IMG/VR virus record: IMGVR_UViG_2695420514_000009
Strand: one strand, 5' to 3'
Length of the DNA: 14,161 bases
From: a virus
Taxonomy: Duplodnaviria; Heunggongvirae; Uroviricota; Caudoviricetes
Both the position numbers and the translations under genes were made by a program. Below, one piece after another: positions 1 through 5,122 of the stretch. The first letter of the stretch is position 1. Every line of letters starts with the position of its first letter. The notes beneath the pieces are model-generated. The model was not told the origin of the DNA. It was given only the letters and a program-made list of their open reading frames with translations, and searched no databases.

Positions 1-237
1 ATGGTACAGCTAAGTGATGACCAGAAAAGAAAAGTGGCGGCACAGAAACGAGCAGAGTGTTTGCGTAAGGCGCGCCGGACTCCGGTTTCACCGGTGAACC
101 TGACAGAAATAAAACAAGCGGTCAACAGACTACATTCTGAGTTGGGAATGGGATTTGAAGAGCGGCGGGTATTCCGACGATATAAAGGGACAGGAGAACA
201 GAATACGTCCGGAAACGCGCGGTCAAAAAAATGCTAA
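1..237 (+). CDS. hypothetical small basic protein; ORF begins exactly at the window edge, so the true start is uncertain
   Basis: 78-aa ORF from the six-frame track, lysine/arginine-rich, no family recognised. It is convergent with the minus-strand ORF 318-542 and followed by a hairpin at 275-299. Lower GC than the structural genes. Confidence 0.25.
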   Translation: MVQLSDDQKRKVAAQKRAECLRKARRTPVSPVNLTEIKQAVNRLHSELGMGFEERRVFRRYKGTGEQNTSGNARSKKC

Positions 238-274
238 AAAATATCTGAGAGAGTTATTGCCTGTTACCATAATA

Positions 275-299
275 AAAAGCGACTTTAGTGGTCGCTTTT
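275..299. terminator. bidirectional rho-independent terminator-like hairpin between convergent ORFs
   Basis: AAAAGCGAC (275-283), loop TTTAGTG (284-290), GTCGCTTTT (291-299). The 5-bp GC core is extended by an A-run/T-run that can pair and also supplies a U-tract on either strand. Confidence 0.45.
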
Positions 300-317
300 G
301 TGTCATATATAAGTCGT

Positions 318-542
318 TTAAGTAAACCTGTCTGAACAGGTGCTCTGGTCGTGTTTGTCTTTGTTGGGTAAAAATTGAGAATATTTTTCATTAATTAATC
401 TTCTTCTGCAGGCTTCAATAACCCACGCTGAAAAATTTTCTGAACCTTTCAGATCAAGAGCGATGTTAATTTGTTCAATCATCTGGTTTGGAAATCGGAT
501 GTTGCGGGTTGTTGTTCTGCGGGTTCTGTTCTTTGATGACAT
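318..542 (-). CDS. putative small ribbon-helix-helix (Arc/MetJ/CopG-like) DNA-binding protein
   Basis: 74-aa ORF with ATG at 540-542 (complement). Basic N-terminal tail (KNRTRRTTTR) followed by a predicted strand-helix-helix pattern, IRFPNQMIEQINIALDLKG-SENFSAWVIEACRRRL, which resembles the Arc repressor architecture. The RBS is weak. The DNA closely resembles what I recall of the lambda right end next to cos. Confidence 0.45.
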   Translation of the reverse strand: MSSKNRTRRTTTRNIRFPNQMIEQINIALDLKGSENFSAWVIEACRRRLINEKYSQFLPNKDKHDQSTCSDRFT

Positions 543-707
543 AATGTTGCCCCATATTCAGTGTTGCTGATTTGTATTATCTGAAGTTGCTTTTACGTTA
601 ATTTGATGCAGATCAATTAATACGATACCTGCGTCATAATTGATTATTTGACGTGGTTTGATGGCGTACACGCACGTTGTGACATGTAGATGATAATTAT
701 TATTTTG

Positions 708-722
708 TGGGTCCTTTCCGGC
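708..722 (+). promoter_or_regulatory. cosQ-like element (packaging termination signal) upstream of cosN
   Basis: GGGTCCTTTCCGGCG, about 17 bp upstream of the cosN nick, followed by ATCCGACAGGTTACG. This matches the lambda right-end terminal sequence as I recall it, with one or two substitutions. Confidence 0.5.
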
Positions 723-732
723 GATCCGACAG

Positions 733-755
733 GTTACGGGGCGGCGACCTCGCGG
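733..755. other. cosN cohesive-end site; predicted 12-nt 5' overhang GGGCGGCGACCT at 739-750
   Basis: TTACG|GGGCGGCGACCT|CGCGG matches the lambda cohesive end and its immediate flanks. It sits about 185 bp upstream of the terminase small-subunit gene, as in lambda. Confidence 0.8.
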
Positions 756-786
756 TTTTTCGCTATTTATGAAAATTTTCCGGGAT

Positions 787-893
787 CCATGTCCGGTTTC
801 TCTGCAAGTTAACTATATGAAAAATATAAAAACAGGCTGTCCGTGAACCGGACATGTGCAAAAAACGGACATGTAAACCGGACATGACCGGTT
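787..893. promoter_or_regulatory. cosB-like region: repeated terminase small-subunit binding (R-site-like) motifs flanking an AT-rich putative IHF-bending segment
   Basis: Motif AACCGGACATG occurs at 846-857, 864-874 (one base shorter) and 876-887 in direct orientation, and inverted at 787-798 (CCATGTCCGGTT). The AT-rich stretch 811-835 lies between the inverted copy and the direct copies. Similarity to lambda ends right after TTTTCCGG (about 782). Confidence 0.55.
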
Positions 894-933
894 TTGTGCT
901 GATTGTGAGGTAAGAGTTTTTGCGAGGTGAGGA

Positions 934-1443
934 GTGGCTACGCAGACTGAAGTTGCCAGGCATTTGAGTCTGACCGATCGCCAGCTTCGCAGATTGCAGA
1001 AATTACCGGGTGCCCCGGTCTCGAATAAGCGAGGGCAACTGGATCTGGATGCCTGGCGCGATTTTTACATATCGTATCTGAGGAGAAGTAAAAACGATGT
1101 GCCTGATGGCGATAGCGAAGACGACTATGAGGAAAAATTGCTTATTGCCAGATGGGAACTGACAGCAGAACAGGCTGTTACACAGCAGTTAAAAAATGAG
1201 GTGTCAAAAGGAAAACTTATTGACACCGGGTTCTGTATTTTTGCCCTCAGTAAGCTGGCAATGGCGTTATCCAGTACGCTTGATTCCATCCCTTTATCCA
1301 TGCAACGACAGTTTCCTGATTTAACACCGCGCCATCTTGACCATCTGAAAACCCTTATTGCGAAGGGGGCAAATCAGTGTGCGCGGGCGGGGGATAAATT
1401 ACCGGATTTACTCGATGAATATATCAGAGCAACAACTGAATAA
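934..1443 (+). CDS. nu1: terminase small subunit (gpNu1-like)
   Basis: 169 aa with GTG start at 934, the first start after an in-frame TGA, preceded by GAGGTG. It aligns along its length with recalled lambda gpNu1, for example FCIFALSKLA against FCTFVLSRIA, and a C-terminal LPDLLDEYI against LIPGLLSEYI. The N-terminal DNA-binding region is more divergent. The 3' end overlaps the next gene by 29 nt. Confidence 0.85.
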   Translation: MATQTEVARHLSLTDRQLRRLQKLPGAPVSNKRGQLDLDAWRDFYISYLRRSKNDVPDGDSEDDYEEKLLIARWELTAEQAVTQQLKNEVSKGKLIDTGFCIFALSKLAMALSSTLDSIPLSMQRQFPDLTPRHLDHLKTLIAKGANQCARAGDKLPDLLDEYIRATTE

Positions 1444-3533: not shown

Positions 3534-5122
3534 AACGAACGCCTGTCCTGATTGATGTGAACGGCGTTCCGCTTCGGGAGAGCCTCAGCTACAACGGGGG
3601 CGGCGCAGGATTTGGCGGGCAAATGGCGGAGTGGTTGCCACCGGCGCAGAGTGCCGATGCAGCTCTGTTGCCCGCGTTGCGTCTGGGGAATGCCCGTGCA
3701 GATGATCTGGTACGCAATAACGGGATAGCGGCCAATGCGGTGGCACTGCATAAGGATCACATTGTCGGGCATATGTTTCTTATCAGCTACCGTCCGAACT
3801 GGCGCTGGCTGGGGATGCGGGAGACCGCGGCAAAAAGTTTTGTCGATGAGGTGGAGGCGGCCTGGTCGGAATACGCAGAAGGGATGTCTGGCGAGATCGA
3901 CGTGGAAGGGAAACGCACGTTTACGGAATTTATCCGTGAAGGTGTGGGCGTTCATGCGTTTAACGGCGAAATCTTTGTGCAGCCGGTCTGGGATGCGGAG
4001 ACCACGCAGTTATTCCGTACGCGTTTTAAAGCCGTGAGTCCGAAACGGGTGGACACGCCAGGACACGGTATGGGGAACCGCTTTCTGCGGGCCGGTGTGG
4101 AGGTCGATCGATATGGCCGTGCCGTTGCGTACCATATCTGTGAGGATGATTTTCCGTTCTCTGGTAGTGGACGATGGGAACGGATCCCGCGTGAACTTCC
4201 CACCGGGCGTCCGGCCATGCTGCATATTTTCGAGCCGGTGGAGGACGGGCAGACCCGTGGGGCTAATCAGTTTTACAGCGTCATGGAGCGGCTGAAGATG
4301 CTGGATTCCCTGCAGGCAACACAGCTTCAGTCAGCCATAGTGAAGGCAATGTATGCAGCGACAATTGAAAGTGAACTTGATACCGAAAAGGCCTTTGAAT
4401 ATATCGCCGGTGCACCGCAGGGGCAGAAGGATAATCCGCTTATTAATATTCTGGAGAAGTTCTCCAGTTGGTATGACACGAATAACGTGACGCTGGGCGG
4501 CGTCAAAATTCCGCACCTTTTCCCCGGGGATGATCTGAAACTGCAGACTGTGCAGGATTCAGACAATGGATTTTCGGCACTTGAACAGGCGCTGCTGCGG
4601 TATATCGCCGCCGGTCTTGGCGTTTCCTACGAACAGTTGTCCCGTGATTACTCGAAGGTCAGTTATTCAAGTGCCCGTGCATCCGCCAATGAGTCGTGGC
4701 GCTATTTTATGGGGCGGCGAAAATTTATTGCGGCCCGGCTGGCCACGCAGATGTTTTCCTGCTGGCTGGAAGAGGCTCTTCTTCGGGGGATTATTCGTCC
4801 GCCACGGGCGCGTTTTGATTTTTATCAGGCGCGATCAGCCTGGTCACGGGCAGAGTGGATTGGTGCCGGAAGAATGGCCATTGACGGGCTCAAGGAGGTT
4901 CAGGAATCAGTGATGCGCATTGAGGCCGGACTGAGCACGTATGAGAAAGAGCTGGCGTTGATGGGCGAGGATTATCAGGACATTTTCCGCCAGCAGGTCA
5001 GGGAATCTGCAGAGCGGCAAAAAGCCGGACTCTCACGTCCGGTGTGGATAGCGCAGGCGTATCAGCAGCAGATAGCGGAGAGTCGCAGGCCGGAAGAGGA
5101 GACAACACCACGTGAGACGTAA
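3530..5122 (+). CDS. B: portal protein (gpB-like)
   Basis: 530 aa with RBS GGAGTGAGG. Long conserved blocks match lambda gpB, for example ARADDLVRNNG, FEPVEDGQTRGAN, LQSAIVKAMYAATIESELDT and LLRYIAAGLGVSYEQLSR. Confidence 0.93.
   Translation: MKRTPVLIDVNGVPLRESLSYNGGGAGFGGQMAEWLPPAQSADAALLPALRLGNARADDLVRNNGIAANAVALHKDHIVGHMFLISYRPNWRWLGMRETAAKSFVDEVEAAWSEYAEGMSGEIDVEGKRTFTEFIREGVGVHAFNGEIFVQPVWDAETTQLFRTRFKAVSPKRVDTPGHGMGNRFLRAGVEVDRYGRAVAYHICEDDFPFSGSGRWERIPRELPTGRPAMLHIFEPVEDGQTRGANQFYSVMERLKMLDSLQATQLQSAIVKAMYAATIESELDTEKAFEYIAGAPQGQKDNPLINILEKFSSWYDTNNVTLGGVKIPHLFPGDDLKLQTVQDSDNGFSALEQALLRYIAAGLGVSYEQLSRDYSKVSYSSARASANESWRYFMGRRKFIAARLATQMFSCWLEEALLRGIIRPPRARFDFYQARSAWSRAEWIGAGRMAIDGLKEVQESVMRIEAGLSTYEKELALMGEDYQDIFRQQVRESAERQKAGLSRPVWIAQAYQQQIAESRRPEEETTPRET

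What the first reader, a model, noticed from the sequence alone, without database searches (positions are those of the whole stretch)
238..735. Leftward ribbon-helix-helix-like small gene at the extreme right end of the genome, next to cos
A 74-aa ORF (318-542, minus strand) has the basic-tail/strand/helix/helix signature of Arc/MetJ-type repressors. It is transcribed away from cos from an AT-rich ~190-bp region (543-735) and ends at a bidirectional terminator shared with a convergent small ORF. If lambda-like, the right end is the first DNA to enter the cell, so this could be a very early-expressed regulator or a moron. The region is much more AT-rich than the structural genes, suggesting separate acquisition or regulatory constraint.
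Basis: partly seen in the sequence, partly recalled or inferred. Interest (0 to 1): 0.5.

Follow-up and report, generated by a model that had tools for sequence, protein, structure and literature searches.

The report
Small Arc-like repressor gene beside cos
The 74-codon gene next to the phage's cohesive end is real and belongs to the widespread but uncharacterised YlcI/YnfO family, which phage lambda also carries; it most likely encodes a small Arc-type DNA-binding repressor, so it is an ordinary kind of gene whose role in the phage is still unknown.

Summary
The ORF at 318-542 (minus strand) is real. It scores 64.5 bits against Pfam DUF3950 and matches NCBIfam YlcI/YnfO and PHROG 949. Lambda, DLP12 (ylcI) and Qin (ynfO) carry homologues, and 4172 of 5426 complete E. 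coli genomes match the region.

It lies 196 bp left of a lambda-type cosN (739-750), in DNA of 37% G+C against 55% in the structural genes. It ends at a hairpin (275-299) that could terminate transcription on both strands.

Codons 1-49 are under strong purifying selection (dN/dS 0.07). Homology to lambda breaks inside the gene, and the C-terminal tail differs between phages.

Evidence on the ribbon-helix-helix (RHH) reading:
- Family members hit three "Arc-like repressor" PHROGs.
- hhalign against the Arc family gives P=8e-4 in the expected register.
- In distant relatives, which lie in integrase/primase islands, three upstream palindromic operators vary together with N-terminal residues. The strongest is residue 12, which aligns with Arc Gln9.
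- The monomer AlphaFold model and all three fold searches showed no RHH fold. A dimer model could not be run.

No convincing promoter or operator was found in this window. The "convergent small ORF" is a PerC-family gene cut by the window edge.

Verdict: a known family and a known kind of protein. Its function in lambdoid phages is untested.

The parts
318..542 (-). 74-aa YlcI/YnfO-family (DUF3950) gene
   Evidence: ORF. Pfam PF13132 7.9e-18 (64.5 bits, cutoff 25), NCBIfam NF041551 (34.5 bits, cutoff 30), PHROG 949 1.3e-31. Annotated as 'YlcI/YnfO family protein' in a genome 98% identical over the region. A 100% identical protein is encoded in IMG/VR locus L081.
393..542 (-). Conserved N-terminal domain (residues 1-50): basic arm, IRFP segment and two helices. 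This is the proposed Arc-like DNA-binding domain.
   Evidence: Residues 1-49 are nearly invariant across lambdoid copies. dN/dS is 0.07. AlphaFold helices at 19-32 and 39-55 with pLDDT about 80. Arc-like PHROG hits. hhalign against Arc, P=8e-4.
318..392 (-). Variable C-terminal tail (residues 51-74), left of the mosaic break point
   Evidence: DNA homology to lambda ends at window 408. At least eight unrelated tails follow the conserved ...ACRRRL in different prophages. pLDDT is below 50 from residue 58 on.
275..299 (.). Hairpin that could terminate transcription on both strands, lying between the YlcI-family gene and the PerC-family gene
   Evidence: Inverted repeat I11. Folding energies -13.1 and -10.9 kcal/mol, z -3.3 and -3.5, with a U-run after the stem on both strands.
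543..738 (-). 196-bp upstream region between the start codon and cosN. The promoter and operators are expected here but were not identified.
   Evidence: Mean pairwise distance is 0.04-0.09 among 40 unique copies, similar to third codon positions of codons 1-25 (0.10). No good -35/-10 pair on the gene strand. The best -10-like hexamer is GATAAT at 576-581 (GACAAT in lambda).
574..643 (-). Three related AT-rich sites that are candidate operators: 633-643 TCAATTATGAC, 613-623 (inverted) and 574-584 TCAGATAATAC. They lie about -100, -80 and -42 from the ATG.
   Evidence: Repeats I7 and I13 and a repeat search. They are not above chance: 56 of 300 and 89 of 300 dinucleotide shuffles do as well. 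Their spacing resembles the -105/-82/-38 operators of distant relatives.
739..750 (+). cosN cohesive-end sequence GGGCGGCGACCT
   Evidence: Read directly. It lies in the block that is 91-92% identical to the lambda right and left ends.
1..237 (+). 3' part of a PerC/Pch-family regulator gene, convergent with the YlcI-family gene and cut by the window edge
   Evidence: PF06069 1.1e-25, matching profile positions 27-89 of 90. The full gene is annotated 'PerC family transcriptional regulator' in L001.

Best explanation
The gene encodes a small sequence-specific DNA-binding protein of the ribbon-helix-helix (Arc/Mnt/CopG) kind.

Proposed mechanism:
- Two copies of the conserved 50-residue N-terminal domain pair up.
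- The segment ...T12-R13-N14-I15-R16-F17-P18 forms a two-stranded ribbon that reads bases in the major groove.
- The basic N-terminal arm adds contacts, and the two helices form the dimer core.
- The protein most likely represses its own promoter, and possibly a divergent one, by binding short palindromic sites upstream of its start codon.
- In lambdoid phages it forms a separate AT-rich gene unit with its own terminator, running antisense to the late transcript beside cos.

Shown here: it is a real gene under strong purifying selection, it belongs to the YlcI/YnfO family, and in distant relatives the upstream operators vary together with the N-terminal residues.

Inferred: the RHH fold, dimerisation, self-repression in this phage, and the time of expression. 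Its biological role in the phage is unknown.
For: Coding and family membership:
- It scores above the curated cutoffs of Pfam DUF3950 and NCBIfam YlcI/YnfO.
- dN/dS is 0.07, and variable sites fall 4/6/17 by codon position.
- Homologues of 33-55% identity across Enterobacterales keep I15, R16, F17, N36, F37, S38, W40, V41 and C45 invariant.

Arc-like relationship:
- Of 43 members, 23 hit the HicB-like PHROG 497 (best E 2.2e-5). Twelve, 11 and 10 hit the Arc-like repressor PHROGs 228, 6506 and 582 over residues about 6-58.
- hhalign of the family against an Arc-family alignment (Pfam PF03869 members) gives P=8e-4. It aligns residues 9-36 with Arc 6-34: T12 with Gln9, N14 with Asn11, R16 with Arg13, P18 with Pro15 and G33 with Gly30.
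- AlphaFold places helices at 19-32 and 39-55 with pLDDT about 80.

DNA recognition in relatives:
- Relatives in 24-25 integrase/primase island loci carry three 12-13-bp pseudo-palindromes (GTG-N6-CAC type) at about -105, -82 and -35 from the start codon. In the six loci tested, these repeats were matched by at most 3 of 100 shuffles.
- The variable operator core tracks the four residues before IRFP (Mantel r 0.63) much better than the rest of the domain (r 0.29).
- Proteins with the same four residues but 8-17 differences elsewhere have operators 0-3 mismatches apart. Proteins with different residues there but 5 or fewer differences elsewhere have operators 3-7 apart.
- The best single column is residue 12 (r 0.58), followed by 5, 14, 6, 9 and 11. 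All helix columns score 0.16 or less.

Gene unit: low G+C and a hairpin that could terminate on both strands. ylcI of DLP12 is listed as part of a convergent overlapping transcript pair in K-12 RNA-seq data (PMC12288877).
Against: - The monomer AlphaFold model is of low confidence (pLDDT 65.7). It shows a short N-terminal helix instead of a strand.
- A profile search of PDB sequences found nothing significant.
- Pfam RHH families are not hit.
- hhalign probability is only 24%.
- The covariation comes from distant relatives in a different genomic context. It does not control for relatedness, and operator and reading residues lie within 150 bp of each other, so they are inherited together.
- In this window no promoter was found, and the repeated sites upstream are no better than chance.
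- No paper on the function of YlcI, YnfO or DUF3950 was found.
Confidence: 0.6

Rival explanations
1. The protein is not ribbon-helix-helix. It is a small three-helix (HTH- or Myb-like) protein, or mainly a protein-binding adaptor.
Against: - An HTH would read DNA with its last helix. That helix (NFSAWVxxAC) is nearly invariant across relatives with different operators, while the N-terminal residues track the operator.
- The Arc-like PHROG hits and the hhalign register point to RHH.
Confidence: 0.12
2. The protein works at cos. It binds the conserved DNA beside cosQ/cosN to modulate terminase cutting or packaging termination, or to act on the first-injected DNA end. In that case gene and target site are kept together as one module.
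For: - In lambdoid phages the gene always sits about 196 bp from cosN.
- The block from cosN to codon 45-50 (408-783) stays 91-92% identical to lambda, while cosB and the Nu1 N-terminus on one side and the tail and PerC gene on the other are replaced.
- Two relatives fuse the domain to the N-terminal DNA-binding part of a small terminase subunit (Pfam Terminase_2). One of them is a complete 129-aa gene.
Against: - Distant relatives are not next to terminase genes or cos-like sequences.
- Conservation of the intergenic DNA is no stronger than at third positions of the adjacent codons.
- From general knowledge, a cos fragment of about 200 bp (cosQ-cosN-cosB) is enough for lambda packaging.
- No binding site was identified here.
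Confidence: 0.1
3. It is an orphan antitoxin-like protein, or the neutralising partner of a toxin or defence protein encoded elsewhere.
For: The most frequent non-family hit is the HicB-like antitoxin PHROG 497: 23 of 43 members, best E 2.2e-5. Many type II antitoxins are RHH proteins (general knowledge).
Against: No toxin-like gene is adjacent. The neighbours are a PerC-family gene across a terminator, and cos. There are no significant PADLOC hits. The PHROG match covers only the RHH-like stretch (profile positions 99-152 of 342).
Confidence: 0.05
4. The ORF is not a functional gene. It stays open only because the DNA beside cos is constrained, or it is the mirror image of a gene on the other strand.
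For: Codons 1-25 are almost as conserved at third positions (0.10) as the non-coding DNA next to them. One antisense frame is open across codons 1-48. Long antisense ORFs overlap the homologues in the island loci.
Against: - dN/dS is 0.07, with 17 of 27 variable sites at third positions.
- Protein-level conservation persists at 33-55% identity where the DNA is no longer alignable.
- On the + strand of this window, ORFs across the gene are interrupted and reach at most 35 aa.
- The antisense ORFs in the islands resolve into a real divergent Icd-like gene plus read-through.
Confidence: 0.03

Closest known systems
YlcI (DLP12 prophage) and YnfO (Qin prophage) of E. coli K-12, and the unnamed 64-aa homologue in phage lambda (about lambda 48110-48304, minus strand)
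   Same: Same family (Pfam DUF3950, NCBIfam YlcI_YnfO_N). Same position and orientation next to cos. The first 49 residues are nearly identical, and the upstream DNA is 91-92% identical.
   Different: The C-terminal tail (residues 50-74) and the left-hand neighbours differ: a PerC-family gene here, ybcW/ybcV/bor in lambda and DLP12. None of these proteins has a described function.
Arc and Mnt repressors of phage P22 (immI region), ribbon-helix-helix family PF03869
   Same: Similar size. A shared N-[IL]-R-[FWM]-P segment followed by helix, Gly-containing loop and helix. They are phage-encoded small repressors acting on short symmetric operators at divergent promoters. The relatives in islands show the same layout.
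   Different: Similarity is weak (hhalign P=8e-4, probability 24%). No structure-based match was found. The YlcI family has a longer basic N-terminal arm and an invariant NFSAWVxxAC second helix. The genomic position differs: beside cos, not in an immunity region.
Phage 'morons' such as lambda bor and lom: separate gene units inserted between conserved phage genes
   Same: Lower G+C than the flanks, its own terminator, opposite orientation to the late operon, and location between the lysis genes and cos.
   Different: No promoter could be identified. Expression from the prophage was not tested here. Part of the gene belongs to a block that is conserved together with cos and does not behave as a freely exchangeable insert.
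DUF3950 proteins of integrase / AlpA / primase-helicase islands in Serratia, Klebsiella, Enterobacter, Proteus, Morganella, Xenorhabdus and Pectobacterium
   Same: Same domain at 33-45% identity with the same invariant residues. Each is a small gene preceded by three repeated sites at similar distances from the start codon.
   Different: These genes face a divergent Icd-like / primase operon and not cos. Their operators are GC-containing GTG-N6-CAC palindromes that vary by locus. The residues before IRFP vary (TTKG, AKKN, xYKG and others), whereas the lambdoid type is fixed as TTTRN.

Membership tests
YlcI/YnfO family (Pfam DUF3950, NCBIfam NF041551) | Score above the curated family cutoffs | tested here: met
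   PF13132 64.5 bits against cutoff 25. NF041551 34.5 bits against cutoff 30.
YlcI/YnfO family (Pfam DUF3950, NCBIfam NF041551) | Conserved IRFP ... NFSAWVxxAC core | tested here: met
   I15, R16, F17, N36, F37, S38, W40, V41 and C45 are invariant in a 43-sequence alignment that includes the window protein.
Ribbon-helix-helix superfamily (Arc/MetJ/CopG) | Strand-helix-helix domain of about 45 residues | tested here: inconclusive
Ribbon-helix-helix superfamily (Arc/MetJ/CopG) | Obligate dimer with an intersubunit antiparallel beta-ribbon | not testable with these tools
No multimer prediction is available.
Ribbon-helix-helix superfamily (Arc/MetJ/CopG) | Sequence-profile similarity to established RHH families | tested here: inconclusive
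   For: the Arc-like PHROGs 228, 6506 and 582 are hit by 10-12 of 43 members (best E 1.3e-4 to 2.6e-4) over the whole domain, and hhalign against the Arc family gives P=8e-4 in the expected register. Against: no Pfam RHH family and no PDB sequence reaches significance.
Ribbon-helix-helix superfamily (Arc/MetJ/CopG) | DNA specificity set by residues of the N-terminal strand or arm, on short symmetric repeated operators | tested here: met
   Tested in relatives only. Three pseudo-palindromic sites per locus. The operator core varies with residues 5-14 (best: residue 12, r 0.58) and not with the helices (r 0.16 or less). In this window the candidate sites are not above chance.
Phage moron (separate prophage-expressed gene unit) | Own terminator and atypical base composition | tested here: met
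   Hairpin at 275-299. G+C 37% against 55%.
Phage moron (separate prophage-expressed gene unit) | Own promoter and expression from the repressed prophage | tested here: inconclusive
   No consensus promoter on the gene strand. The only transcript evidence is indirect: ybcW-ylcI is listed as a convergent overlapping transcript pair in K-12 (PMC12288877).
Type II antitoxin (HicB-like or RHH antitoxins) | Adjacent, co-transcribed toxin gene | tested here: not met
   The neighbours are a convergent PerC-family gene, and cos followed by the terminase genes. No PADLOC hit.

The most novel reading that the evidence does not exclude
The lambdoid protein could take part in cross-talk between helper phages and satellite-like islands, or could act on cos-proximal DNA of incoming phages.

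The lambdoid and island subfamilies share an almost invariant two-helix core, which would be the dimer interface. They differ in the DNA-reading N-terminal residues. Mixed dimers could therefore inactivate an island's repressor when a lambdoid phage is induced or infects. That would de-repress the island's Icd-like/primase operon.

Alternatively, the prophage-made protein could bind the conserved site beside cos on superinfecting relatives.
Probability: 0.08. Interest if true: 0.7.

Novelty: new member of a known kind. Interest (0 to 1): 0.35.

Why it matters
Phage lambda carries this conserved gene, which at least one recent record annotates only as a hypothetical protein. Sequences matching the region occur in about 77% of complete E. 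coli genomes. No paper on its function was found.

Placing the family among Arc-like repressors gives a concrete, cheap set of experiments: gel shifts on the 196-bp cos-proximal fragment, and swaps at residues 12 and 14. The reading-residue/operator correspondence in the relatives supports that design.

It also raises the question of why a repressor domain is kept together with cosN and cosQ. For annotation of this window, the finding is ordinary: a known family of a known kind.

Tried and rejected
- **PDB sequence searches.** The single protein and the family profile found nothing significant.
- **Pfam scan at E up to 10 on 43 members.** No RHH family appeared, only weak HicB_lk_antitox hits.
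- **Promoter search on the gene strand.** Only weak candidates.
- **Operator search in 543-738.** The repeats TCA(A/G)(A/T)TAAT and the inverted repeat at 612-644 are no better than dinucleotide shuffles.
- **Conserved link to cos or terminase in distant relatives.** Rejected: no lambda-like Nu1 or A genes and no cosN-like or P2-cos-like sequences nearby.
- **C4/CI-type RNA next to the Icd-like gene in the islands, or any Rfam family in the window.** None found at gathering score.
- **The in-frame 37-aa ORF upstream (558-671, minus strand).** It is annotated as a CDS in one lambda record. It has no coding signature (variable sites 8/9/8) and its start codon is not conserved.
- **Long antisense ORFs over the island homologues.** These are a mirror-frame effect plus a real divergent Icd-like gene.
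- **Defence-system models (PADLOC).** No hit.
- **Literature.** Nothing on the function of ylcI, ynfO or DUF3950. The lambda ribosome-profiling paper could not be fetched under the PMC id I recalled.

Full report
**1. The observation**

The minus-strand ORF at 318-542 (ATG start, 74 aa) exists as described. It lies 196 bp to the left of GGGCGGCGACCT (739-750), the lambda cohesive-end sequence. Window 408-783 is 91-92% identical to the right end plus cosN of lambda and many lambdoid phages. GGGTCCT at 709-715 is at the position of lambda cosQ (from my own knowledge of lambda, not tested here).

G+C is 37.3% for the reported region and 55.1% for the terminase and head genes. AAAAGCGAC-N7-GTCGCTTTT at 275-299 folds well on both strands (-13.1 and -10.9 kcal/mol; z -3.3 and -3.5). 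A U-run follows it on each strand.

The "convergent small ORF" needs correcting. Window 1-237 is the 3' part of a PerC/Pch-family regulator gene (PF06069, 1e-25) cut by the window edge. In the closest genome the gene encodes 104 aa.

**2. What the gene is**

The protein matches Pfam DUF3950 (7.9e-18), NCBIfam YlcI/YnfO and PHROG 949, which has no assigned function. RefSeq annotates the same gene as "YlcI/YnfO family protein" in a genome 98% identical over the region. An identical protein is encoded on an IMG/VR contig.

DNA matching the region occurs in 4172 of 5426 complete E. coli genomes, at up to 12 places per genome. Lambda has a 64-aa homologue at the same place, annotated only as a hypothetical protein in a recent record. 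So do DLP12 (ylcI) and Qin (ynfO). No paper on its function was found, and ynfO is listed among the uncharacterised genes of K-12.

**3. Is it coding?**

Among lambdoid copies, codons 1-49 have dN/dS of 0.07 and variable sites fall 4/6/17 by codon position. Homologues of 33-55% identity in Serratia, Klebsiella, Enterobacter, Proteus, Morganella, Xenorhabdus, Pectobacterium, Dickeya and Rouxiella keep I15, R16, F17, N36, F37, S38, W40, V41 and C45 invariant.

The gene is mosaic. Residues 1-49 are almost invariant, and after ...ACRRRL the tails are unrelated between prophages. DNA homology to lambda stops at window 408, inside the ORF. The functional unit is therefore the N-terminal domain of about 50 residues.

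The in-frame 37-codon ORF just upstream (558-671) is not coding (variable sites 8/9/8). Many apparent homologues from unrelated taxa and from ENA contigs of about 3.5 kb appear to be lambda control DNA with sequencing errors.

**4. The ribbon-helix-helix question**

The structure route did not settle it:
- The AlphaFold monomer model is of low confidence (pLDDT 65.7). It has helices at 19-32 and 39-55 where RHH helices A and B would lie, but no strand.
- The RHH strand forms only in a dimer, and a dimer model could not be run.

Sequence evidence is weak but consistent:
- Twenty-three of 43 members hit the HicB-like PHROG 497.
- Twelve, 11 and 10 of 43 members hit three "Arc-like repressor" PHROGs over the whole domain.
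- I built an Arc-family alignment from database proteins named Arc and carrying PF03869. hhalign against it gives P=8e-4. The register is RTTTRNIRFPNQMIEQINIALDLKG-SEN against KMPQFNLRWPREVLDLVRKVAEENGMSVN.
- In the Arc-operator complex, Gln9, Asn11 and Arg13 contact the bases (established knowledge, from memory: Raumann et al. 1994). They align with T12, N14 and the invariant R16.

**5. Evidence from distant relatives**

These relatives are not next to cos or terminase genes. They lie in islands with an integrase, an AlpA-like gene, an AntA-domain gene and a D5-type primase-helicase, or with a MobC-family gene. They are divergent from an Icd-like gene.

Upstream of each lie three 12-13-bp pseudo-palindromes of the type GTG-N6-CAC, at about -105, -82 and -35 from the start codon. 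In the six loci tested they were matched by at most 3 of 100 shuffles.

The variable core of these sites differs between loci and follows the four residues before IRFP:
- AKKN goes with TGTGCGCACA (Klebsiella, Rahnella).
- TTKG goes with GTGCACA(T/A)ACAC (Pectobacterium, Serratia, Xenorhabdus).
- xYKG goes with GTGTTTAAACAC (Xenorhabdus, Morganella, Pectobacterium).
- AKKH goes with GTGTGAACCCAC (Pantoea, Xenorhabdus).

The Mantel correlation of operator distance is 0.63 with these residues and 0.29 with the rest of the domain. Proteins with the same four residues but 8-17 differences elsewhere have operators 0-3 mismatches apart. Proteins with 5 or fewer differences elsewhere but different residues there have operators 3-7 apart.

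Column by column, the strongest association is residue 12 (r 0.58), then 5, 14, 6, 9 and 11. No helix column exceeds 0.16. This is the pattern expected if the N-terminal arm and strand read the DNA, as in RHH proteins. It is not the pattern expected for a helix-turn-helix.

Caveats: relatedness is not controlled, and reading residues and operators lie within 150 bp of each other. The contrast with the helices of the same proteins serves as the internal control.

**6. What this means for the window**

The lambdoid subfamily has a fixed reading segment (TTTRN) and a nearly fixed upstream region, so covariation cannot locate its sites.

Three related AT-rich sites lie at about -100, -80 and -42 from the ATG (633-643, 613-623 and 574-584), a spacing like that of the island operators. 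They are no better than chance. A small palindrome lies next to cosQ (690-703).

No acceptable sigma-70 promoter was found on the gene strand. The best -10-like hexamer is GATAAT at 576-581, which is GACAAT in lambda. The intergenic DNA is conserved (distance 0.04-0.09), but not more than third positions of the adjacent codons (0.10).

The only expression evidence is an RNA-seq survey that lists ybcW-ylcI of DLP12 as a convergent overlapping transcript pair (PMC12288877).

**7. Mechanism and rivals**

The best-supported reading is a small dimeric Arc-like repressor that binds short symmetric sites upstream of its own gene, encoded in an AT-rich gene unit with its own terminator, antisense to the late transcript beside cos (confidence 0.6).

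A role at cos is possible but weakly supported. In its favour, the block from cosN to codon 45-50 is kept together while both flanks are exchanged. Two relatives also fuse the domain to the N-terminal part of a small terminase subunit, and one of them is a complete gene. Against it, distant relatives have no link to cos.

An antitoxin role lacks a partner gene. A non-coding relic is excluded by dN/dS and by the distant homologues.

**8. Novelty and score**

The gene belongs to an already annotated family and to a well-known kind of protein. What this analysis adds is the assignment of that family to Arc-like repressors and the reading-residue/operator correspondence in its relatives. Interest is modest (0.35): a conserved, unstudied gene in lambda, with a cheap experimental path.

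Noticed in passing
window 1-237 (+): The window begins inside a PerC/Pch-family transcriptional regulator gene (PF06069, 1e-25, profile positions 27-89 of 90). The full gene encodes 104 aa in the closest E. coli genome. From memory, PerC homologues on lambdoid prophages regulate the LEE virulence island in EHEC.
   Followed up: partly
window 783-940: Homology to lambda stops at 783, just right of cosN. The cosB-like region carries its own repeats: CATGTCCGGTTT at 788-799, and AACCGGACATG-type copies at 846-857, 863-874 and 876-887. The Nu1 N-terminus differs: Pfam Phage_Nu1 matches only residues 49-150. This suggests the lambda cosN/cosQ combined with a different terminase-binding specificity.
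   Followed up: partly
window 155-325 (+): A 56-aa ORF in another frame crosses the terminator hairpin and matches positions 78-126 of PHROG 33603 (1.3e-27). The PerC part matches positions 27-65 of the same PHROG. In some phages the two are therefore joined, by a frameshift or a miscalled gene.
   Followed up: no
window 558-671 (-): A 37-codon ORF lies in frame with the YlcI-family gene, separated from it by a TGA and five codons. One lambda record (PV340536.1) annotates it as a CDS. It shows no coding signature (variable sites 8/9/8), its start codon is not conserved, and one copy has an internal stop.
   Followed up: yes
window 679-706 (+): A promoter-like site, GTGACA-16 nt-TATTTT, points rightward across cosQ/cosN toward Nu1. 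It is divergent from the YlcI-family gene and resembles the divergent-promoter layout of the island relatives. It is only a consensus match.
   Followed up: no
L044-L077, about 130-200 nt upstream of the DUF3950 start (e.g. L058 about 3800-3860): A conserved hairpin, GAAGCCCGG-N17-CCGGGCTTC, lies between the DUF3950 gene and the divergent Icd-like gene. Stem changes between genera are compensatory (GCCCGG/CCGGGC, GCCTCG/CGAGGC, AGCTCA/TGGGCT). No Rfam family matched at gathering score. It may be a structured RNA or a terminator.
   Followed up: partly
L161 4001-4390 (protein P0193); also P0209: A complete 129-aa gene in an integrase/primase island fuses the DUF3950 domain to about 50 residues matching the N-terminal part of the small terminase subunit (Pfam Terminase_2). 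Its upstream operators are of the GTGCACAAACAC type, as expected for its TTKG residues.
   Followed up: partly
L008-L040 and many ENA proteins: Apparent homologues in Streptomyces, Pseudomonas, Flavobacterium, Bacillus-group and MAG assemblies are about 89% identical and often sit on contigs of about 3.5 kb or 48 kb. These look like lambda control DNA left in assemblies, with frameshifted tails from sequencing errors.
   Followed up: partly
L058, L060, L072, L074, L075 (minus strand over the DUF3950 gene): ORFs of 204-418 codons run antisense across the DUF3950 gene in the islands. They resolve into the mirror frame of DUF3950, the conserved hairpin, and a real Icd-like gene of about 60 codons (NF033153, 8e-17). 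They could be miscalled as genes.
   Followed up: yes
lambda genes next to the homologue (literature): The convergent neighbour lambdap79 (ybcW-like) scored as essential in a CRISPRi screen although earlier work reported it as non-essential (PMC10695390). A 2026 preprint reports lambdap79 as the trigger of the Vulcan defence system, with escape phages losing it by recombination with Qin (10.64898/2026.09.04.749371). The lambda YlcI homologue does not appear among the genes in the CRISPRi table rows I read.
   Followed up: no
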